Source: Mustelus asterias (lineage: Eukaryota). Taken from it: a DNA stretch of 64,000 nucleotides. This document shows, one piece after another, positions 6,601 to 58,659 of this stretch. Each line of letters begins with the position of its first letter. Positions within the stretch are counted from its first letter, which is position 1. A program made the position numbers and the translations under genes. A model generated the notes under the pieces. That model saw only the letters and a list, made by a program, of their open reading frames with translations, did no database searches and was not told where the DNA came from. The stretch lies in assembly GCF_964213995.1 (NCBI RefSeq), contig NC_135811.1, positions 84,258,001 to 84,322,000 on the forward strand. Reading direction: 5' to 3'.

Positions 6601-9100
6601 GCATGACAAGAAGGAGAGACTTTTGTGGTGTGGTGGGAGGGAGGCATGGTTAGGTAGGATAACATTTCTTACACCTGAAACGCAACTCGTATTGGAGTTA
6701 ACAGGTTTGCATAATTATTGGGTTGCTGCCCACAGGTTGGGTGAATCCGATTGCCTTGACGCCCATTGGGAATCTTGATTTTTGGCAGATGCCCCAGTCA
6801 GCGGGGATTCCTGCCTGCTGTCTCACGAGGCTGGAGAATCCTGTCCAGTATGTTGATAGTGGTATTGCTGGAAAAAGACTTGTTGAAGCTTTTTGACATG
6901 TCTTTTCAGCAATAAAATAATAAAAGTTATAACTTTGAGCTAGTCTGGAAGCATATCCTGAGTTGCCTATCCACAGCAACACCCACTTATTTTCCAGGAC
7001 TGGGCAGCATCAACTAAACTTTCAGGATTGTTTAGAGTTGTGGACACCCAGCCGATAAGTGAAGTTGAGTAGAGTGTGAGCGAATGTTACCTCCTGTCCC
7101 TCTTTGATTTTGGGTGTATTTCATGCTTTAATTAATGCTATTTTGCAGCAATTTCCTCAAGCCCTTGTCTTCAACTTAAAGTTTAAATTTTATTTATTAG
7201 CAACATAAGTAGGAAGACTGATGAGGTCCTGCAGCAGCAATTTAGGAAGTTAGGTAGAAAGTTAAAAAGCAGGACCTCTAGGGATGTAAACTCAGGATTA
7301 CTCCCTGTGCCATGTGTCAGTGAGGCTAGAAATAGAAGGGTAGTACAGCTCAACACGTGGCTGAATAGCTGGCGTAGGAGGGAGGGTTTCAGATATCTGG
7401 ACCGTTGGGATCTCTTCTGGGGCAGGTGGGACCTGCACAAAAAGGACAGGTTGCATCTAAACTGGAAGGGCATAAATATTCTGGCTGGGAGGTTTGCTGG
7501 TGTCACATGGGAGGATTTAAACTAATTTGGCGGGGGTGGGGGAGCGGGGGGGGGGGGGGGGGGGGTGGTGTGGTGGTGGGAACCAAAGCAAAGATGAATT
7601 AACTGAAGGGGAACCGGAGATTAGGGCCAGTAAGACTCGGAGAAAGAGCAGGCAGGGTGTGGTTGCTAATCAAAGAGGGTCTGGTGGACTGAAGTGCATT
7701 TGTTTCAATACGAGAAGTGTAACAGGTAAGGCAGATGAACTTCGAGCTTGGATTAGTACTTGGAACTGTGGTGTTGTTGCTATTAGAGACTTGGTTAAGG
7801 GAAGGACAGGAATGGCAGCTTAACGTTCCAGGATATAGATATTTCAGGTGGGATAGGGGGGGATGTAAAAGGGGTTGGGGGAGCTGCACTACTGGTTAAG
7901 GAGAATATCACAGCTGTACTGTGGGAGGACACCTCGGAGGGCTCATACAGCGAGGCAATAGAGCTCAAGAATAGCAAGGATGTAGTCACAATGTTGGGGG
8001 TTTACTATAGGCTGCCCAACAGCCAGTGGGAGACCGAGGAACAGATATGTAGGCAGATTTTGGCAAGGTGTAAAAGTAACTGGGTTGTTGTGGTGGGACT
8101 TCCCTTCAACTTCCCTTATATTGACTGGGACTCACTTAGTGCTAGGGGTGTGGATGGGGCAGAGTTTGTAAGGAGCATCCAGGAGGGCTTCTTGAAGCAG
8201 TATGTAGATAGTCCAACTAGGGAAGGGGCCATACTGGACCTGGTATTGGGGAATGAGTCCGGCCAGGTGGTCGACGTTTCAGTAGGGGAGCAGTTCGGGA
8301 ACAGTGACCACAGCTCAGTAAGCTTTAAGGTACTGATGGATAAAGATAGGTGTAGTCCTCAAGTTAAGGTGCTAAATTGGGGGAAGGTTAATTACAATAA
8401 TATTAGGCAGGAACTGAAGAATGTAGATTGGGCACAGATGTTTGAGGGCAAATCAACATCTGGCATGTGGGAGGCTTTCAAGTGCAAGTTGATAGGAATT
8501 CAGGACCGGCACATTCTTGTAAGGATGGAGGATAAGTATGGCAAGTTTTGGGAACCTTGGATAACGAGAGATATTGTAAACTTAGTCAAAGAGAAAAAGA
8601 AAGCATTTGTCAAGGCTAGGAGGCTGATAACACACGAAGCAATGTGGAATATAAGGAAAGTAGAAAAAAACTTAAGCAAGGAGTAAGGAGGGCTAAAAGG
8701 GTCATGAAAAGTCATTGGCCAGCAGGATTAAGGAAAATCCAAGACTTTTTATACATATATAAAGAGGGGGAGGGTAGTCAGGGAGAGGGAGAGGGTTGAC
8801 CCACTCAAGGACAGGGGAGGGAATCTATGCGTGGAGCCAGAGGAAATGGGCGAGATATTAAATGAGTACTTTGCGTCAGTATTCACCAAAGAGAAGGACT
8901 TGGCAGATGATGAGTCTGGGGAAGGGGGTGTAGATTGTTGAGATCAAAAAGGAGGAGGTATTGGGGTTCTTGAGAAACATTAATGTAGACAAGTCCCCAG
9001 GGCCTAATAGGATATGCCCCAGAATACTGAGAGAGGCAAGGGAGGAAATTGCTGAGGCTTTGAGAGAAATCTTTGTATCCTCACTGGCTACAGGGGAGGT

Positions 9101-45578: not shown

Positions 45579-46346
45579 CAAACATTCCTATTCTGATAGT
45601 TCATGGAGTGATGTGAATTCTGTGGAATTATTATTTTTAAAAAGGCATCTTGGTGTTCTCTGGCCCCTGATCTTTCAAATTTCAAAGAAGTAAATGAACT
45701 GGTCATGACATTGCTGTGTGTGGGAAGCTGCTGCCACAGAATCGCGTGTCGCATTATCAACATAACAGCTGTGCATTTAAGAGTCATTCCTCGCTTTGAG
45801 ACATTTTGATGTAATAGTGTACTATATAAGTATAAGTTTTACTACAAAGACCTGAGCTAGTACATGGAGCAGGGCTATTTATGTCTCTTGGCTTTCAGAG
45901 TGCGCTGTTTATCCGAATTATGCTCAAATATATGTGGCAGATACTGAAAGAGATTCTTTTTACAGAGATCAGTTGTTATCTTCCATTGTCGGGAAAGTTA
46001 GAGAATTCAGTTTTTCTCAGTTCACTTTTCAGTGGAGTGCAGCTTTCCCAGGCTAAGAGTGCGCCCAGGGAAATTTCACAAGTCAATCCCTTTAACATCA
46101 TTACCTCATTATCTGGATAGTAACCACAGTGCGAAGGTGCACTGTTCAAACGATGTCCTCAAAGATCTCATCATCCTTCATGGGATTCCTGTTACAGACT
46201 ATCCATGCATTTTGAGCTTAGGGGGAAATAAGAATATGAAACATCTCAGTGCGCTAGTTCACATAGAGCCTATGCTTGTTCTGACTGGAATGACCCACAT
46301 AGTTTCCTTTGGATATAGTATTTTTGCTGTTGGCTCTATACTCCTG

Positions 46347-46591
46347 TGATGCACTATCAATAAGGCGAAAGACTACCGATATGCCAATATAAGTGTAGGC
46401 TTTTATTCACAACAGAATCAGGAGCAGATCCCAACAATTAACCGACCTGGACTGAACAAGGGGGAGGAGACAGCCACCTTTATACTAGGTGCTGAGGGGA
46501 GGAACCAAACTGGAAGGGGATGTGTCCAGCTATGACAAACACACACAATGGTGGTCCATATAGGACAAAGGCACAACTGAGGTCCACCACA
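46347..46591 (-). repeat. 3' LTR of the intact Gypsy
   Basis: Direct repeat of 50631-50875, preceded on minus strand by PPT AAAAGGAAGGGGTGAA. Confidence 0.96.
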
Positions 46592-46640
46592 TTCACCCCT
46601 TCCTTTTAAAAAACAACACGGGGGTGAAGCGGAAACAATA

Positions 46641-49600
46641 TCACAAGTCCAGACGAACCGGTGGCTTGATCCGTCGTCGCGATCGTCGTAGTGCAGGTCG
46701 CAGAGTCGTCCGAGCAGGGAGCGATGTCGGCCCAGGCTCCGTACAGTGAGCGTCGAGAGAAGGCGCTGGGTGGTGTGAAGCGGACCGATCCGTCGTCCCG
46801 TCCAGTCGTCGGGTACTGCGTGGCGACGGCTCCGGCGACTCAAGCGAGCTGTACATAGGGGCGAGAGGAATGGGCTGTGGCCCTGGTGGCGTATGGGGAA
46901 CAGTGGGAACCGGAGCTGGGGGGTGGGGGGCTGCAACAGGCTCTGGGCACACTACATTGGGGACAGGGACTGAGGGAGGAAGAGGCGTAGCAGTCTCCGA
47001 ATGGACGACACCAGGGACCGTGGGGCGGAAGGACGTGGTGACCTCCGGGGCACCCGCGGGTGCCAAGTCACGGACAGAAACCGTGTCCTCCCGCCCATCA
47101 GGGTACGCTACATAAGCATATTGGGGATTAGCATGGAGCAGTTGGACCTCCTCGACCAAGGGATCTGCCTTATGGGTCCGGACATGCTTCCGAAGCAGGA
47201 CGGGTCCCGGGGACATCAGCCAATCCGGGAGCGAAGTACCCGAGGAGGACTTCCTGGGAAATGAAAACATCCGCTCGTGAGGGGTCGTATTGGTCGCTGT
47301 GCACAAGAGTGACCTAATGGAATGTAATGCGTCCGGAAGGACGTCTTGCCAACGGCTGACTGGAAGGCCCCTAGACCGTAACGCTAATAGAACGGCCTTC
47401 CAGACGGTTGCGTTCTCCCGCTCTACTTGACCATTGCCCCTGGGGTTATAGCTAGTGGTGCGGCTGGAGGCAACGCCTTTGGCGAGCAGGTACTGCCTCA
47501 GCTCATCACTCATGAAAGAGGACCCACGGTCGCTATGAATATAGGCTGGGAAGCCGAACAGGGTGAAGAGCTTGTTCAGGGTCCGAATCACTGTAGCCGT
47601 GGTCATGTCCGAGCAGGGGAAGGCAAAAGGGAAACGTGAGTATTCGTCAATGATATTCAGGAAATAAACATTGCGGTTAGAGGAGGGGAGGGGGCCTTTA
47701 AAATCAACGCTAAGGCGCTCGAACGCGCGAGTGGCCTTCACAAGGTGCGCCCTACCTGGCCGGTAGAACTGCGGTTTGCACTCAGCGCAGACCCTGCATT
47801 GCCTGGTAATCGTCCGGACTTCCTCAAGGGAGAAGGGCAGGTTACGGGACTTGACAAAATGGAAAAATCTGGTGACACCCGGGTGACAGAGGTCGTTATG
47901 GAGGGACTGTAGCTGGTCTAGTTGGGCACTGGCACATGATCCACGGGACAGGGCGTCTGGGGGCTCATTGAGCTTCCCAGGCCGGTACATGATGTCATAT
48001 CTGTAGGTGGAGAGCTCAATCCTCCACCGCAAGATCTTGTCATTCTTAATCTTGCCCTTTTGCCTGGTGTTAAACAGGAAGGCAACTGACCGCTGGTCCG
48101 TAATTAAGGTGAATCGTTGGCCCGCGAGATAATGGCGCCAGTGCCGGACGGCTTCCACGATGGCCTGGGCCTCCTTCTCGACCGAGGAGTGTCGAATCTC
48201 AGGGCCTTGTAAGGTCCGGGAAAAGAAGGCCACCGGACGGCCCCTCTGGTTAAGGGTGGCAGCTAGGGCAAAGTCAGACGCATCACTTTCCACTTGGAAT
48301 GGGATGGATTCGTCCACAGCGTGCATCGCGGCCTTCGCGATGTCCGCTTTGATGTCATCGAAGGCCCGACAGGCCTCCTCCGCCAGGGGAAAAGAGGTCG
48401 ATTTTAGGAGCGGACGGGCTTTATCTGCGTAACGGGGAACCCACTGGGCATAATAGGAGAAGAAGCCCAGGCATCTCCTCAGTGCTTTGAGGGTAGTAGG
48501 GAGGGGAAGCTGCATAAGGGGACGCATACGGGCTGGGTCGGGGCCAAGGACACCATTTTCTATCACGTACCCAAGGATGGCGAGGCGGCGTGTCCGGAAA
48601 ACACACTTCGCCTCATTGTATGTGAGGTTCAGGAGAGTGGCCGTACGAAGGAATTTTTGTAGGTTGGCATCATGGTCCTGCAGGTCATGGCCGCAGATGG
48701 TGACGTTATCCAGATACGGGAAAGTGGCCCGTAGTCCGTGCTGGTCCACCATTTGATCCATGGCCCGTTGGAAGACTGAGACCCCATTGGTGACACCAAA
48801 GGGGACTCGGAGGAACTGGTAGAGGCGGCCATCCGCCTCAAAGGCAGTGTATGGGCGATCCTCCGAGCGGATAGGGAGCTGGTGGTAAGCCGATTTCAAA
48901 TCGATCGTTGAAAAAACCCTATAGTGCGCGATGTGGTTGACTATGTCCGCGATACGGGGAAGAGGATATGCATCTAGTTGGGTATACCTGTTTATGGTCT
49001 GGCTGTAGTCAATCACCATGCGGTGTTTCTCCCCCGATTTAACTACGACCACTTGCGCCCTCCAGGGGCTGGTGCTGGCCTGGATAATCCCTTCCTGGAG
49101 CAAACGTTGTACCTCGGACCGAATGAAGGCCCGGTCATCCGCACTATAGCGCCTACTCTTGGTGGCTATAGGCCTACAATCCGGGGTGAGGTTATCAAAT
49201 AACGGGGGGGGGGTGATCTTGAGGGTCGAGAGACTGCAGGTGGTGCGCGAGGGGCGCTGCCGTGACGGCGCCTTGCAGACGGAGAGCGGGGGATAAGGGC
49301 CATCATACTGCAGGGTGACGCTCCTATGATGGCTGAGGAAATCTAACCCCAGCAGTACAGCTGCGCAGAGTCGCGGCAGCACGAGGAGCCGAAAACGCTC
49401 GTAGACTGTGCCCTGTACCGTCAGCGTCACCAAGCAGCACCCGAGGACCTCCACTGAGTGAGAATTCGAGGCCATGGAGATGGTCTGGCTCCAGGGTTGC
49501 ACGGGAAGGGCATATTGACGCACTGTGCGAGGGTGTATAAAACTTTCCGTGCTCCCACAGTCAAACAGGCAGTTTTCTGCATAACCATTTACCTTGATCT

Positions 49601-50606
49601 CCATTATGGACTTGGAGAGTTGATGTGGCTGCGACTGGTCCAGGCAAATCGATGCCACTGTTGAGTTAAAGAAGAATCCATCTTCGTCGCCGTCTGATGA
49701 CGTCACGGATGAAGCTTCCTGCTCAGCTTGCCTTGATGCCAGTCTCAAAGATGGCGACTCCCGCACTTCCGGTGACCGCATCAAAGATGGCGATTCCCGC
49801 ACTTCCGGTGACCGCATCCAAGATGGCGATTCGCGCGCAGCCGCCGCCTGCATCAAAGATGGCCGCGCCCTCGGAGCACACATGGCTCCACGAGTCTTCA
49901 GAAGCGGCTTTGCTCTGCAGACTTTGACAAAGTGGCCTAGCTTACCGCATCCGGAGCAAATCGCGTCCTTTGCCGGGCAGTGACGCCGAGGGTGCTTAGG
50001 GAGGCCACAAAAGTAACATTTGGGCCCTGCTGGAGCAGCCGTCGCAGTGGAGCCGTCGGTGGAACGGGATCCAAGGTAAGACCCGAGATTATGGGAGGCT
50101 GCTTCTAACGTTTCAGCCATCGTGGCCGTTTTCCGGAGGTCTTGGTCATCTTGTTCCAGCAGACGCTGCTGGATGTATGTAGACTCAATGCCCGCAACGT
50201 AGGCGTCGCGGATCAGATCCTCCGTGTTCTGAGCTGCTGAAACAGCCTTACAGTCGCATGCTCGGGCGAGGACTCGCAGGGCGCGCAGAAATTGGGCGCA
50301 CGATTCTCCTGGCTGCTGTTTGCGGGTAGTTAGGAGGTGTCTGGCGTAAACCACGTTAGGGCTCTTTCGGAACTGCCCTTTTAGGAGTTCGATAGCGTCC
50401 GCGTAAGTAGCAGCGTCCCGGAAGATTCCATAGACAGTTTCGCTTACCCGGGCGCGGAGCACGTGGAGTTTAGCAGCGTCGGTGTCGATGGCCGTAGCGG
50501 TGTCGACGAATGCTTCGAAGCAGTCCAACCAATGATCAAATTTATCAGAGGCTCCAACCTCTTGAGGGTCTAAAGCTAACTTGTCGGGTTTTAGAAACTG
50601 CTCCAT
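46641..50606 (-). CDS. Gag-Pol polyprotein, 1321 aa (Gag with two CCHC knuckles, protease, RT, RNase H, integrase)
   Basis: CYFCGLPKHPRRHC and CSGCGKLGHFVKVC; LFDCGS; IDLKSAYHQL, PFGV, YLDN; SDAS, EKEA, ITDQ, DALSR; HHCC; SVDF, SDRG, QVER; Pro-rich tail ending LRRSRRRIKPPVRLDL. Confidence 0.96.
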   Translation of the reverse strand: MEQFLKPDKLALDPQEVGASDKFDHWLDCFEAFVDTATAIDTDAAKLHVLRARVSETVYGIFRDAATYADAIELLKGQFRKSPNVVYARHLLTTRKQQPGESCAQFLRALRVLARACDCKAVSAAQNTEDLIRDAYVAGIESTYIQQRLLEQDDQDLRKTATMAETLEAASHNLGSYLGSRSTDGSTATAAPAGPKCYFCGLPKHPRRHCPAKDAICSGCGKLGHFVKVCRAKPLLKTRGAMCAPRARPSLMQAAAARESPSWMRSPEVRESPSLMRSPEVRESPSLRLASRQAEQEASSVTSSDGDEDGFFFNSTVASICLDQSQPHQLSKSIMEIKVNGYAENCLFDCGSTESFIHPRTVRQYALPVQPWSQTISMASNSHSVEVLGCCLVTLTVQGTVYERFRLLVLPRLCAAVLLGLDFLSHHRSVTLQYDGPYPPLSVCKAPSRQRPSRTTCSLSTLKITPPPLFDNLTPDCRPIATKSRRYSADDRAFIRSEVQRLLQEGIIQASTSPWRAQVVVVKSGEKHRMVIDYSQTINRYTQLDAYPLPRIADIVNHIAHYRVFSTIDLKSAYHQLPIRSEDRPYTAFEADGRLYQFLRVPFGVTNGVSVFQRAMDQMVDQHGLRATFPYLDNVTICGHDLQDHDANLQKFLRTATLLNLTYNEAKCVFRTRRLAILGYVIENGVLGPDPARMRPLMQLPLPTTLKALRRCLGFFSYYAQWVPRYADKARPLLKSTSFPLAEEACRAFDDIKADIAKAAMHAVDESIPFQVESDASDFALAATLNQRGRPVAFFSRTLQGPEIRHSSVEKEAQAIVEAVRHWRHYLAGQRFTLITDQRSVAFLFNTRQKGKIKNDKILRWRIELSTYRYDIMYRPGKLNEPPDALSRGSCASAQLDQLQSLHNDLCHPGVTRFFHFVKSRNLPFSLEEVRTITRQCRVCAECKPQFYRPGRAHLVKATRAFERLSVDFKGPLPSSNRNVYFLNIIDEYSRFPFAFPCSDMTTATVIRTLNKLFTLFGFPAYIHSDRGSSFMSDELRQYLLAKGVASSRTTSYNPRGNGQVERENATVWKAVLLALRSRGLPVSRWQDVLPDALHSIRSLLCTATNTTPHERMFSFPRKSSSGTSLPDWLMSPGPVLLRKHVRTHKADPLVEEVQLLHANPQYAYVAYPDGREDTVSVRDLAPAGAPEVTTSFRPTVPGVVHSETATPLPPSVPVPNVVCPEPVAAPHPPAPVPTVPHTPPGPQPIPLAPMYSSLESPEPSPRSTRRLDGTTDRSASHHPAPSLDAHCTEPGPTSLPARTTLRPALRRSRRRIKPPVRLDL
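49745..49870. repeat. In-frame 36-bp tandem repeat (about 3.5 units) in the Gag-protease linker
   Basis: Units start at 49745, 49781, 49817 and 49853; encodes ESPS(L/W)MRSPEVR. Confidence 0.9.
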
Positions 50607-50630
50607 ACTAGTAACTGTTGTGAATAAAAT

Positions 50631-50875
50631 TGATGCACTATCAATAAGGCGAAAGACTACCGATATGCCAATATAAGTGTAGGCTTTTATTCACAACAGA
50701 ATCAGGAGCAGATCCCAACAATTAACCGACCTGGACTGAACAAGGGGGAGGAGACAGCCACCTTTATACTAGGTGCTGAGGGGAGGAACCAAACTGGAAG
50801 GGGATGTGTCCAGCTATGACAAACACACACAATGGTGGTCCATATAGGACAAAGGCACAACTGAGGTCCACCACA
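50631..50875 (-). repeat. 5' LTR of the intact Gypsy
   Basis: Direct repeat of 46347-46591. Confidence 0.96.
50734..50768 (-). promoter_or_regulatory. LTR core promoter: TATAAA plus Inr-like TCAGTC (predicted +1 at 50737)
   Basis: TATAAA at 50768-50763 with the Inr A 31 nt downstream; second element has the same pair at 32 nt (55926, 55894). Confidence 0.7.
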
Positions 50876-52828
50876 TCCTGCACAGTTGTGGGGGCGGGGG
50901 GTGGGGGACGGAAACTAGCAAGGCTATAATTTCCTACTCCAACTTTTTCTGACAGTAGAATACATTTTGGATAAGACAAACTGACCTGTGTGTAACAGAA
51001 TTCTCTCCAGAACCTCAGGCATATATGAGCATAATTCAGAAACTGAAAGTCAAAGATATTTACATCTATCTCTTACAACAGTAAAACACAATTTTGGAGC
51101 CTGTCTTGAGAGCCTGAGTGGTGTAGGATACAAAAAATGTTTTTGTTGTTTACGTTGAAAGGTTTTGTTTTACGGATTACGAACCAATAACATTTGGGTG
51201 CTTATTTTCAGTTGCAAGGGTTATGATTTGCAACCTGCTCATTTCATTGAGGAGGCAGCATGCAAAGTTAGCGCTGTCGCCTTGTTTGCATGACGGGGGA
51301 GGCAGTGGTGTAGCGGTATTGTCACTGGACTAGTAAACCAGAGCAAGATCTGGGGACCAGTGTTCAAATCCCACCATGACAGAAAGTTGTGGATGACGTG
51401 CCCTTTGTGAGTCAAATGGTGCAGAGGCATAAATTGATCAGCAAGTTATGACGATTCATATCTCTCTTTCACCTTTTCGTGCTGGACGATTTGCATAATA
51501 ACAATGATACGCGTTGTTGAATTCTCATTACTTTTTCGAGGAAGAGTTTAGTTATTGTAAGCATGTGGGCAATATTCTGTGGTGATAATGATACCGAGCA
51601 AAACATAATCCACAGAAAGTTCACATGAGCTGCAGTAATAACAGTGCACTAGCACTTTAAATATCCATACGTTCAGATTGCATCGTTCATTTGTTCAGTC
51701 ATTCCAAAGGAAAGAAGATTTCTTTTAGTAACCTTATTTGAACCGAGATTGAATAGTATAATTGAAAGGGTTGAGGTCAAAGTTAAATTTAACAAGAAAA
51801 TGCTGTGTCAATTAATTTATAAAATGTAAATCCGGGCACGTTAATAGTGAAGACCTAGTATTATTGGCAAAATTTGTCATAAATAAGACCTTTGTTTGCC
51901 ATCATTCTCCAGACAGGGTGACAAGCTCTTAAGATAAAAGAAGGGCCACTTGGACCATAGCAGAGATTGTGCCCAAGGGAGCAAAGTGACTGGGTGGGTA
52001 TGTGTGTGAGAGAGGAGTTTGTTCCCCCATTACATGGCTAGGAATTATTGCATTTATCGCCTTTCAGTGGTGCTGCCTGGTGCATTCTTTTTTCTTTTGA
52101 AAAGGGATATTCAGTCAACATTTAAAAATAGGTAAAGGATACCCTCTTCCTACACGAATTCTTGCCTCTGAAGTTCAAGGGTATGAAAATAAAGTTGCGG
52201 TAAATAATCCTTCATTGTGATGTTTTGGATTTGGTATGTGTATTATACATCTGACCTCGAATAGTTTGGAAATACCTAGTCACAGTGAAATTGCTTATTA
52301 AGATACTTTTCTTTTGATGCTACAACGTTTAGCAGACCGCGATTAGATTGTGGAAAGGCTATAAGTTCATGTCATGACAGTAAAACTGCATTTTACTTGC
52401 AGATCAGCCTTTATGACATTGGAACCGCATCAATTACTGCAACTATCAAATTTTAGCCCCATCCATGAAAACACTCTCTCAATTTGTGCATTTGCTGGGA
52501 GTATGGTTAAGAAAATGACACTGGTCTTTACAAATGGCAAATGGTAAAAGGTGTACAACAGATGTTTTCAATTGGTTGGGAGAGCCCTTGGTCTCTTTAG
52601 TGACAATCCCTTAGCTCTCGCTCTCCACCTCTCTCTGGTCCTGACCTGATCTTGTTGCTGCTGCCATTATTACCTGGCTGGATTGTTGCTGCTGCTCCCA
52701 CCCTCCCTGCACAATCTAATCTCACACCATCCTCACTCCATCTCCTCATGGCCCAGTGCACTTACGCCCCAGTGACAAAGAAACAGCAGGAGGAGACTGA
52801 GAATCCCACGTCACAGCCTGGAGACTAT

Positions 52829-55747: not shown

Positions 55748-58659
55748 ACTCTCTTTTTTTGTTCTTCGATGAGAGTTTAACAACAGCAAATAAAATTGAC
55801 GCGCATTATCATACACGAGGCTAGATGCTCAGGAAATAAAGGCTTTTATTTGCTGTAACGAAGCAGCCAACAATTATATACACGATCCCAGACTGAGGGG
55901 TCCCAGCCAGAGCAGGGACCTTTATACCTCTCCCAGGAGGCGGAGCCCAACTGGGATGTACCACAACACTACAATACAAAGGTGTAACAACCCCACCCTA
56001 ACCCCAACAGCAACAAGTAGCACAACCCAACAGTAACATATGTACATCCTTGTAGTACTGGCCAGACCCTGGCTCAGTACTATCCAGTGGGAACCAACGA
56101 TGGTTCACCACAAAAATAAGGGACAATTCTGTAAAATTCAAGACTGTTGATCACCCTGTTTCCAGCACTGACCCAAATCTAAAATTGCCAAGGAACCCAT
56201 GTTATATGCCACAGCAATGATAAGGTTACACTAAGCAACCTTGCAGCAGTGCTAGATACAAGCCAGCAGTATACACCGGTCAGATTCATTTAAGGACTGT
56301 CTTGATCCCTGTGGGGATCTGTAAATCAAAAGAACCAAATTTCAGAGTGATTCCCCAAATGAAAATATTACACAATAAGATTTCACTTTTTGTAACATTT
56401 ACTTTAACACAGATCAGAATCAATGTAAATTACACCTGAATTAACAGATAAATCACAGTTGGCACAAACAATAAATTGCACATAGAATTGCAGATACAGT
56501 AAATATTAGTTCATTGTATTAGTAGTAAATTCACTGCGCCTGTCCCAGTTTTAGCCAGTCCTTCCAAGCACAATTCCAGTCCCTTTCCTTCAAGGCCTTA
56601 GCCAATTCTCAATTGGCAGCAATGCTCTGCCTGCACAGTCTTCTCTATATAATACATTTCTTTCTGGAATGTTCTCAACTCTGTTTCTGTTGGTTGTGTA
56701 GCATGAGTCTACTGGAACCCCAATCTCCAGCTCTCCCCTTTCCTCTATATATCCCCCGCGTTTTAAGTTTCTCCTTGGTCAAGGGTCGCCACTTCACATG
56801 GACTGGTATTTGTTAATTTCCAAACATTATAATAGATCACATTGCAAGTGATACAAACTCTCAAAAGTCCTTCTCAAACATTTTAAAATAAATTACAGAT
56901 TCCCCAAATCTATTAAAGTAACTAAAAAATTTCCTATTGTTATGGCTGTCAAATGTTATGAAGTTGCATGTGTAAGGTTAAAAATGTGGTGTTTGACAAA
57001 TATAAATATTGAAAAGAAATGCTGAAACCAAAAGAAGAAATCATATAGCACCGTCTCTTTAAAAAACGTGTATCTTTCTGTAGGTTTTAACCTGCAATAG
57101 CAGGTTTGCAACATTCGTATCCAAAGTAGCAGTCAGGGTTCCAACATAGCAAAACAGGCTTTTGAATTGAACCAATGAGTTTATAGCAAGCACGCAGACA
57201 CAGGACCAATGGAATTCAAATGTGAGATTTGCTGACAGCCTCAAGCCACTCAGATCACAGGAATACTGTGAGGTAATTCCAGGTACATAAACCCAGGCAG
57301 GAGGGGTAACTGTTAGAGTAAGCTTGCCACCTCTTTAGTTGGAAGAAGGGGTGGCGAGGCTCTCATATAGAATCCTGCAGTAATATATATATCTTCAGAA
57401 AATCACCATCTAAATTGTAGTATTCCAGATGAGAGCATCACAGAAGAATGTTCATACATCCAAAATACGCCTGGTTGTATATTCTTTGAGAGTGATTGTA
57501 TTCTATAAGGATTTATTTCATTATTCCTGAATGAGTCTTGTAATATTTGGACTGCATTCTATTGGGATTTTATTTAGTTTGTTAATTCTTTAATAAGGTT
57601 GTCACCAGTTTAAAAAATAAAGACCTGTTAATTGTTCATTTTAGAGAGTGGCAGATCCTGCTTTAATTTATCAAAAGCAGTAGCTTCCTACGACACCACA
57701 CACATTCGTATAAGATTATGAAGCGAGGTATAATACATTACCTCCGCATCATAACACAGGTCAATGGTTATCACTGGCAGAGATGTCAGTGCTCAATGGA
57801 AAATCCTATTATCATTGATAAAATGTATGAAAACAGTAGACCTTTAAAATTCTCACACATCAAGCTGCCTTGAAAAGTACTTTTAACAATATCTTCGAGA
57901 TTGTTGCAATAATTCACAAATCCTCAATGGTTCCAGACAAATCTCAAATCTAATGCGATTTTTACTGTATCTTGTGTTTGTTAGTAACATTAAATCTGAG
58001 AATACTAGTAGCTCAGTGCTTCCATTGTCTTGGTTGGCCACCATCTGAATATAGTCATTTATCTCTTTTTAAATTACCCATAGAGAGCGTGTAATTTTTG
58101 CACTTTGAGATTATGTACATTCTACTGTTGATAGCCTGAGTCGTTTGTTGGGTGTTGTGTGTCAACCTCCGTAATTGTAATTTAATAAGCTTTCCAAATA
58201 GAAACGCTTTGAAAATTGGTTGAGGATGAATTAGAGGGTGGTGGTGTTGTTCTGAAGAGAATAGGATGGTGCACTGATAATCAAACTGGCTAATGGAAAT
58301 CAGTGAATTTTATCATGAGGCTTTTCGAAGAGTGTTTTCAACAACCTATTTCTTCCTGCACTTAGTAAAACAAAGATGAATAACCATAATTATTCTGCAC
58401 ATTAACGGCTTGTCGCAACAGATAGTCATCTGCGGCTATAGTTCTGGTATTATTAAAAGTAATGATAAACTATTGCTGTGTAGAAAGTTCCTTTCTATTC
58501 TCAGACATGTACACAGATGAATCCATAATTAAGTTCGATTTCCTCTCCTTTGTGTGCAAGGAATATATAATTCTTTGGCAAGAAAAAGGAGAAAAGGAAT
58601 CATGAACTGTTACAATGCCTAGGGATTTACTGAGAGACCGAAGTTTTGCTTCATACTTT

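What the first reader, a model, noticed from the sequence alone, without database searches (positions are those of the whole stretch)
50615..50699. Gypsy lineage with no tRNA PBS: the PBS position pairs with the LTR's own poly(A) signal (candidate self-priming system)
Seen: after the 5' LTR end (...GCATCA) there is no TGG-type PBS. After a 1-nt spacer comes TTTTATTCACAACAG (50629-50615), the exact reverse complement of CTGTTGTGAATAAAA (50699-50685) in the LTR, which contains AATAAA: a 15-bp stem with a 55-nt loop. The second family does the same with different bases. From the TATA/Inr-predicted start, the LTR arm begins at +39 in both. Established: Tf1/sushi chromoviruses self-prime using the first about 11 nt of the transcript. 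These elements are Mag-like and use an internal, AAUAAA-bearing segment instead. Inference: (a) a cut after AAUAAAA would give a 3'-OH correctly oriented to copy U5, with the stretch between AAUAAA and the poly(A) site serving as R for strand transfer; (b) the duplex can form locally only at the 5' LTR, so it would also mask the promoter-proximal poly(A) signal. I do not know a description of this geometry but cannot check the literature.
Basis: partly seen in the sequence, partly recalled or inferred. Interest (0 to 1): 0.9.

Follow-up and report, generated by a model that had tools for sequence, protein, structure and literature searches.

The report
Self-priming Gypsy clade of marine animals
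This young jumping gene in a shark-like genome, and 30 related families from sharks and other animals, lack the usual tRNA landing site and carry instead 12-18 letters that pair perfectly with their own end repeat, so the group likely starts copying itself with a piece of its own RNA, which in the sharks is predicted to be cut from inside the transcript.

Summary
Confirmed. A young, intact Gypsy element (identical 245-bp LTRs, one 1321-aa ORF) has, one base after its 5' LTR, a perfect 15-nt complement of an LTR stretch ending AATAAAA^GCC. This is a clade-wide trait: 49 of 54 two-LTR relatives show it. In 30 selected families the first 13 positions pair Watson-Crick in 387 of 390 cells, with no G.U, while the letters change. 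One family switches C:G to T:A in step (45:45). Three out-of-clade Gypsy elements have ordinary TGG sites. Self-priming is therefore likely (about 85%). It is known from Tf1/sushi chromoviruses, but this is a separate, chromodomain-less clade, probably Cigr-1 (recalled, untested). The start site is unmeasured. In sharks, fixed TATA-Inr spacing with a variable arm position, and a second helix pairing the bases 5' of the arm with the gag start, favour a primer cut from inside the RNA. Overlap with a poly(A) hexamer is not universal (21 of 30), so masking looks secondary. This scan noted the same clade before in other genomes. Ten literature searches found no description, but key older papers were unavailable.

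The parts
50631..50875 (-). 5' LTR of element E1 (245 bp, TG...CA), identical to the 3' LTR; target-site duplication CAGGA at 50876-50880 and 46342-46346
50763..50768 (-). TATA box, 31 nt upstream of a predicted initiator (A+1 at 50737); same arrangement (31-34 nt) in 18 of 20 shark elements tried, 2 not parsed
   Evidence: prediction from motif only
50705..50711 (-). Short LTR motif just 5' of the arm, predicted to pair with the gag start region 50604-50598 (second helix, shark families only)
50685..50699 (-). LTR arm, the candidate self-primer; holds AATAAA (50691-50686); inferred cut between 50685 and 50684 (AAA^GCC)
50630..50684 (-). 55-nt loop (rest of R and U5 plus the 1-nt spacer at 50630): template of the inferred minus-strand strong-stop DNA
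   Evidence: role inferred
50615..50629 (-). Primer-binding-site position: perfect complement of the arm, no TGG
46641..50606 (-). Single gag-pol ORF, 1321 aa: Gag with two CCHC knuckles, protease, RT (YLDN at about 48716-48705), RNase H, integrase; no chromodomain hit
46596..46607 (-). Polypurine tract, followed by a 4-nt spacer ending AA before the 3' LTR
46347..46591 (-). 3' LTR of E1, with the second copy of the arm and of AATAAA
55797..56112 (-). 5' LTR of element E2 (second family; internally deleted copy; 3' LTR 53341-53050; target duplication ATTTT)
55844..55856 (-). E2 arm (13 nt, ends AATAAAA^GCC)
55783..55795 (-). E2 primer-binding-site position, complement of its own arm

Best explanation
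The site after the 5' LTR pairs with an arm of the element's own LTR and is likely a self-primer binding site, with the primer predicted to be cut from inside the RNA rather than from its first bases. Shown: the pairing, its fixed register, its family-specific covariation across one RT clade, and intact RNase H acidic residues. Inferred steps: (1) in the shark families transcription starts at the TATA/Inr, so the arm ends about 50-53 nt (74-75 in one family) into the RNA; (2) the arm anneals to the site as a 13-16-bp strict Watson-Crick duplex, helped by a second helix onto the gag start; (3) the element's RNase H cuts at AAA^(G/A)CC, as Tf1's does at the end of its duplex, leaving a 3'-OH whose last A sits where a tRNA's last A would; (4) RT copies the spacer and U5 back to the cut (21-77 nt); (5) this DNA jumps to the 3' end using the stretch between the cut and the poly(A) site. 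In sharks the duplex would also hide the 5' AAUAAA, as a secondary effect. Self-priming in any form: about 0.85; this internal-cut form: about 0.5.
For: 49 of 54 two-LTR elements have at least 10 perfect pairs: 46 automatically, 3 more after correcting LTR ends. Shuffle maxima per element were 6-12. In 30 family representatives, positions 1-13 are Watson-Crick in 387 of 390 cells with 0 G.U. Position 13, not used in the search score, pairs in 29 of 30, against 8 of 30 at positions 17-18. Own arm versus own site scores 8.0 of 8, other families' sites 4.4. The arm ends AAA in 28 of 30 and is followed by GCC or ACC in 24 of 30. E2 family: C:G 45, T:A 45, discordant 5 of 95 parsed copies (102 examined). 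Out-of-clade L148, L149 and L151 have TGG sites and 4-7 nt self-matches. TATA-to-Inr stays 31-34 nt while the arm end moves from +50-53 to +74-75. A GCTCC-like motif precedes the arm in 12 of 12 shark elements, moves with the arm, and its C-to-U changes keep pairing with the gag start. Stem probability 0.91-0.99 in 18 folded elements. Ty3 RT spans about 13 bp between its two active sites, and Ty1/Ty3 do not rebuild the PBS from the primer, so a long 5' extension on the primer need not block replication (PMC5371799).
Against: No start site, cut or poly(A) site was observed; the runs on hand were contigs only. The sharp end of pairing at 13-16 bp would also fit a short primer whose 5' end is the RNA's 5' end. 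The second helix is absent in 17 of 17 non-shark families tested, and these show no clear TATA, so the internal position is argued for sharks only. The shark families are related (RT 81-86% identical to E1) and are not independent. Tf1's known primer is the first 11 nt of the RNA (PMC7175516); no internal cut of this kind is known to me. E2 folded only up to its AUG forms a local hairpin over AAUAAA instead of the stem; with 20 more bases the stem wins (0.91). Two of 36 representatives (L123, L139) showed no arm, and five of 54 elements have an interrupted or rearranged stem.
Confidence: 0.5

Rival explanations
1. Ordinary Tf1-type self-priming in a new clade: the replicating RNA starts at the first base of the arm, and the primer is simply its first 13-16 nt.
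For: Pairing drops sharply after position 13-15, as expected for a primer of fixed short length. Tf2 uses alternative start sites and only one supports replication (PMC5341516). Non-shark members show no sign of sequence needed 5' of the arm.
Against: No conserved TATA lies about 30 nt before the arm in the shark families, whereas TATA plus Inr at fixed spacing lies 36-60 nt further up in 18 of 20. The second helix needs bases 5' of the arm.
Confidence: 0.2
2. The primer is the arm in the 3' LTR copy (or from another transcript): the RNA's 3' end, trimmed or cut at AAUAAAA, anneals to the site and primes on a circle.
For: The 3' LTR carries the same arm just before the predicted poly(A) site. 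This route would leave all of +1 to +38 for strand transfer, useful where the loop is only 21-24 nt (L085, L081). Ty3's primer site is partly in 3' U3 (PMC5371799 figure legend).
Against: The 5' arm is 55 nt from the site and is predicted to occupy it (0.91-0.99) long before the 3' end is made. Sequence cannot tell the two copies apart.
Confidence: 0.13
3. The stem serves to hide the promoter-proximal poly(A) signal or to control gag translation, and priming happens by another route.
For: All 10 shark families have AATAAA in the arm; it is predicted paired at the 5' LTR (free 0.02 or less) and mostly more open at the 3' LTR (0.06-0.85). The second helix covers the gag start.
Against: A masking hairpin needs neither an exact start one base after the LTR nor zero G.U pairs. 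Nine of 30 families lack AATAAA and ATTAAA in the arm, and L061 and L065 have one in the loop instead. No other primer site is visible.
Confidence: 0.1
4. A host tRNA fragment or small RNA primes at this site.
For: Half-tRNA priming exists in copia lineages (PMC6317226). The genome's tRNA set was only thinly sampled.
Against: The site starts with TTT, which cannot pair with a CCA end. Each of 30 families matches its own LTR and not the others'. The longest match in 26 tRNA-like sequences of 7 types was 6-7 nt.
Confidence: 0.04

Closest known systems
Tf1/Tf2 and Tj1 of fission yeasts, Tf1/sushi group and Tcn1 clade (self-primed Ty3/gypsy chromoviruses)
   Same: No tRNA site; the site after the 5' LTR is complementary to the element's own LTR; RNase H cut proposed at the end of the duplex (shown for Tf1; passages of PMC7175516, PMC4600332, PMC10085805, PMC6317226).
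   Different: No chromodomain, separate RT clade. Duplex 12-18 bp against 11. Arm predicted 37-60 nt inside the RNA and ending AAA, often on the poly(A) hexamer. The extra helix in sharks uses bases 5' of the arm, whereas both extra helices of the Tf1 'pretzel' use LTR sequence downstream of the primer.
TAR lineage of plant Ty1/copia elements (Houba, Osr-1)
   Same: Self-priming predicted from the same kind of LTR complementarity, outside chromoviruses (PMC6317226 passages).
   Different: Copia superfamily and plants; I did not examine its geometry.
Cigr-1 clade of Ty3/gypsy elements (Ciona; also molluscs and annelids)
   Same: Recalled, not checked: Cigr-1 has 245-bp LTRs, one ORF of about 1200 codons and a sea-urchin-type Gag. 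That matches this clade, which has a tunicate (Styela) member at 62% RT-RNase H identity. It is a clade of its own in the text of PMC6238403 and listed under 'Mag' in its supplement 1.
   Different: No Cigr-1 sequence could be obtained, so membership is untested; the passages seen say nothing on its priming.
Ty3 (Saccharomyces cerevisiae)
   Same: Closest solved RT (4OL8, E 1.4e-47); about 13 bp between polymerase and RNase H sites.
   Different: Ty3 is primed by initiator tRNA and has YLDD where this element has YLDN.

Membership tests
Ty3/gypsy LTR retrotransposon | LTRs with TG...CA, target duplication, polypurine tract, domain order PR-RT-RNase H-IN | tested here: met
Tf1/sushi self-priming group | Site after the 5' LTR complementary to the own LTR, no tRNA match | tested here: met
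Tf1/sushi self-priming group | Chromodomain on the integrase and RT grouping with chromoviruses | tested here: not met
   No PF00385 hit; the clade is apart from the one chromodomain-bearing protein in the tree, P0056
Tf1/sushi self-priming group | Primer is the first 11 or so nt of the RNA | tested here: inconclusive
   Motifs put the start 37-60 nt before the arm in sharks; no RNA ends seen
Tf1/sushi self-priming group | Three-duplex 'pretzel' with both extra helices using LTR sequence downstream of the primer | tested here: inconclusive
   E1 fold shows a U5 end hairpin and an upstream helix; an (A/G)CCT...AGG hairpin follows the arm in 11 of the 32 representatives with a stem, none of them shark; no systematic pseudoknot test
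Tf1/sushi self-priming group | RNase H cuts the RNA duplex to free the primer | not testable with these tools
   RNase H domain present with its acidic residues; activity needs an assay
Mag lineage (A/B/C clades) | RT-RNase H grouping with Mag elements | tested here: inconclusive
   The clade (49 rows, SH-aLRT 100, quick tree) is apart from P0055, P0057 and P0058, whose Mag-like label is recalled from Gag motifs; no named reference was available and deep branches are long
Cigr-1 clade | RT grouping with Cigr-1 of Ciona intestinalis | not testable with these tools
   Original paper not held; supplements list names and accessions only

The most novel reading that the evidence does not exclude
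A large animal Gypsy clade, independent of Tf1/sushi, primes reverse transcription with an internal stretch of its own RNA. RT's RNase H measures a 13-bp duplex and cuts at AAA^GCC, about 50 nt behind the cap. In sharks the same fold hides the 5' poly(A) signal and the gag start codon, so one RNA switch decides between translation, premature polyadenylation and priming.
Probability: 0.35. Interest if true: 0.8.

Novelty: new variant of a known kind. Interest (0 to 1): 0.6.

Why it matters
Self-priming has been tied to Tf1/sushi chromoviruses and one plant copia lineage. A further independent origin, in a clade with 1135 proteins at E 1e-80 or better and with very young families in sharks, means tRNA-free priming is more common in animals than assumed. 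Such elements would escape control by tRNA fragments and are missed by tools that demand a tRNA site. An internal primer would show that RNase H can cut an RNA duplex without a nearby 5' end, which bears on how tRNA priming and hairpin priming are related.

Tried and rejected
IMG/VR gave no relatives. tRNA check: the own-genome search returned mostly one tRNA-Lys cluster, so only 26 tRNA-like sequences of 7 types were compared. A Mag-like control from the own genome failed: the copies are decayed and LTR ends could not be set. Second helix in non-shark families: 0 of 17 at p < 0.05. Splice acceptors before the arm as a clade-wide feature: rejected, 4 of 22. Copying of the primer into the site as the cause of perfect pairing: not decided; Ty1/Ty3 do not inherit the PBS from the primer, so selection alone may explain it. 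The careful tree did not finish; the quick IQ-TREE tree was used. Papers not held: the Cigr-1 description (id recalled), Levin 1996, Lin and Levin 1997 and 1998, Atwood-Moore 2006, Esnault and Levin 2015; Butler 2001 was not looked up.

Full report
Observation. On the minus strand the window holds a full Gypsy element, E1: 5' LTR 50875-50631, identical 3' LTR 46591-46347, target duplication CAGGA, a polypurine tract, and one ORF of 1321 aa with protease, RT, RNase H and integrase and no chromodomain hit. One base after the LTR's final CA lies 50629-50615, the exact complement of 50699-50685; 5000 shuffles of the LTR gave at most 9 nt. A second, internally deleted element, E2 (56112-53050), has a 13-bp version with other letters. 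TATA and an initiator 31-32 nt apart put both arms at +39. The closest protein relatives come from sharks and rays (79-84% in RT-RNase H), so the host is shark-like. E1's family is very young: all 150 scored hits of about 15,000 candidates had an identical Gag N-terminus, and 29 of 30 fetched copies keep the perfect 15 bp.

A clade-wide trait. Protein searches found relatives in rays, catsharks, a tunicate, a sea cucumber, a sea anemone, nematodes and many unnamed assemblies. I fetched DNA with queries blind to the stem: 80 metagenome loci, 11 loci lying in bacterial bins, and own-genome loci hit by four Gag queries. Of 133 sequences screened, 54 had both LTRs and a Gag start; 50 had ends set by a 5-bp duplication. 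46 of 54 had 10 or more perfect pairs with the 5' or 3' arm. Three more reached 13-14 after correcting their LTR ends. Four are interrupted by changes in that copy and one is rearranged. Of 36 representatives, 32 gave a stem at the 5' junction; L102 has one mismatch in 16 (read by eye), L071 matches its cut-off 3' LTR, and L123 and L139 show no arm. I dropped these four and two same-family duplicates, and replaced L259 by its relative L270. In the 30 left, positions 1-13 were Watson-Crick in 387 of 390 cells with no G.U, falling to 22, 20, 13, 8 and 8 of 30 at positions 14-18. Positions 1-12 were part of the search score; position 13 (29 of 30) was not. Each arm fits its own site (8.0 of 8) and not other families' sites (4.4). 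The spacer is one base (A in 25), the arm ends AAA in 28, GCC or ACC follows in 24, and loops are 21-77 nt. In the E2 family one position is C:G in 45 copies and T:A in 45, with 5 discordant, of 95 parsed among 102; copies are related, so these are a few events, not 90. Three more distant Gypsy loci from the same search have TGG sites and only 4-7 nt self-matches. A quick RT-RNase H tree puts 49 rows in one clade (SH-aLRT 100), apart from those three, from a chromodomain-bearing protein and from three proteins with Mag-like Gag (labels recalled).

Why priming. Minus-strand synthesis has to start at this place (established). The register CA + 1 nt + T is that of HIV-1's tRNA site (recalled), with the arm's last A standing in for the tRNA's last A. 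A site starting TTT cannot bind a CCA end, and no single host RNA can fit 30 different sites; a thin sample of 26 tRNA-like sequences matched at most 7 nt. The strict 13-bp core equals the spacing of about 13 bp between the two active sites of Ty3 RT (PMC5371799, passages and section 2.2; cuts at 11-13 nt in PMC11363490, passages). Ty3 RT is the closest solved relative. That RNase H measures and cuts this duplex is inference from Tf1.

Where the RNA starts. This is unmeasured: no RNA holder was listed, and contigs showed no ends. Two indirect lines favour an internal arm in sharks. First, TATA-to-Inr stays 31-34 nt in 18 of 20 elements (2 not parsed) while the arm end lies at +50-53, or at +74-75 in one family, and no second TATA is shared. 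Second, a GCTCC-like motif 16-26 nt before the arm end is present in 12 of 12 shark elements, moves with the arm, and is complementary to the gag start, with C-to-U changes at three G-paired positions. In a duplex test, 4 of 10 shark families reached p < 0.05 (combined p 7e-6, but the families are related) and 0 of 17 others did. Against it, the sharp 13-16-bp edge also suits a short 5'-terminal primer. Ty1 and Ty3 do not rebuild the PBS from the primer, which removes one objection to a primer with a long 5' extension.

Poly(A) masking. AATAAA lies in the arm in 15 of 30 families (all 10 shark ones), ATTAAA in 6, neither in 9; L061 and L065 have a hexamer in the loop instead. Folding leaves AAUAAA free at 0.02 or less in the 5' context and at 0.06-0.85 in the 3' context. 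Masking is plausible in sharks but is not the common denominator; closeness to the cap can suppress a 5' signal anyway (recalled).

What is known. Tf1 primes with its first 11 bases after an RNase H cut (PMC7175516, passages) within a three-duplex pretzel (PMC10085805, passages). Self-priming is assigned to Tf1/sushi, Tcn1 and the copia TAR lineage (PMC6317226, passages; PMC4600332, passages; PMC5341516, passages). The clade is probably Cigr-1, from recalled LTR and ORF sizes. PMC6238403 (passages and supplement rows; its PDF and slide supplements were unreadable) and PMC8556966 (one passage) name that clade without a word on priming in what I saw. PMC3601003, PMC6934838 and PMC3670739 (passages) and PMC7472051 (one reference line) added nothing on it. 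Ten full-text searches found no description of self-priming in this clade. The Cigr-1 paper and the Levin papers were not held, and Butler 2001, Repbase and GyDB were not read, so an earlier mention is possible. Earlier notes of this scan report the same kind of clade in other genomes; they are not independent evidence.

Verdict. Real and clade-wide. It works like Tf1 but is not a member of Tf1/sushi (chromodomain test not met). Self-priming about 0.85; internal cut in the 5' LTR 0.5, Tf1-type start 0.2, 3' arm 0.13, masking only 0.1, host RNA 0.04. New variant of a known kind, interest 0.6.

Noticed in passing
window 48716-48705 (-): The RT motif is YLDN; it aligns to Ty3's YLDD, so the second catalytic Asp is Asn in a clearly active family. 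112 of 153 relatives with a readable motif have N and 41 have D (7 not parsed). A search for YLDN with retrotransposon found no paper. The same change cripples Ty1 transposition (recalled).
   Followed up: partly
window 50711-50705 with 50604-50598 (-): Shark-only second helix that pairs the LTR with the gag start and may control translation versus priming.
   Followed up: partly
L071, L073, L094, L144, upstream of the arm: Strong pyrimidine tract plus CAG, like a splice acceptor, 3-30 nt before the arm in 4 of 22 non-shark families; this could be splicing or trans-splicing onto the arm.
   Followed up: partly
L061, L063, L065, L067, L068, L073, L081, L085, L089, L142, L145: A small hairpin (A/G)CCT...AGG(T/C) starts right after the inferred cut in 11 non-shark families and in none of the shark representatives.
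   Followed up: partly
window 56112-53050 (-): E2 has lost most of protease, RT and RNase H by one deletion, and its LTRs differ by a 24-bp indel; its target duplication ATTTT happens to equal the start of its own leader.
   Followed up: no
L169: A copy whose LTR and leader are present as an inverted duplication reaching upstream of the predicted start; likely a DNA-level rearrangement.
   Followed up: no
L141-L151: Eleven loci of animal-type Gypsy elements sit in GTDB bacterial genomes and bins, most likely host contamination.
   Followed up: no
window 3022-63660 (many copies), 77-1039, 7799-8686: Many copies of a tRNA-derived SINE (HE1-like, name recalled) and LINE RT and endonuclease fragments.
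   Followed up: no
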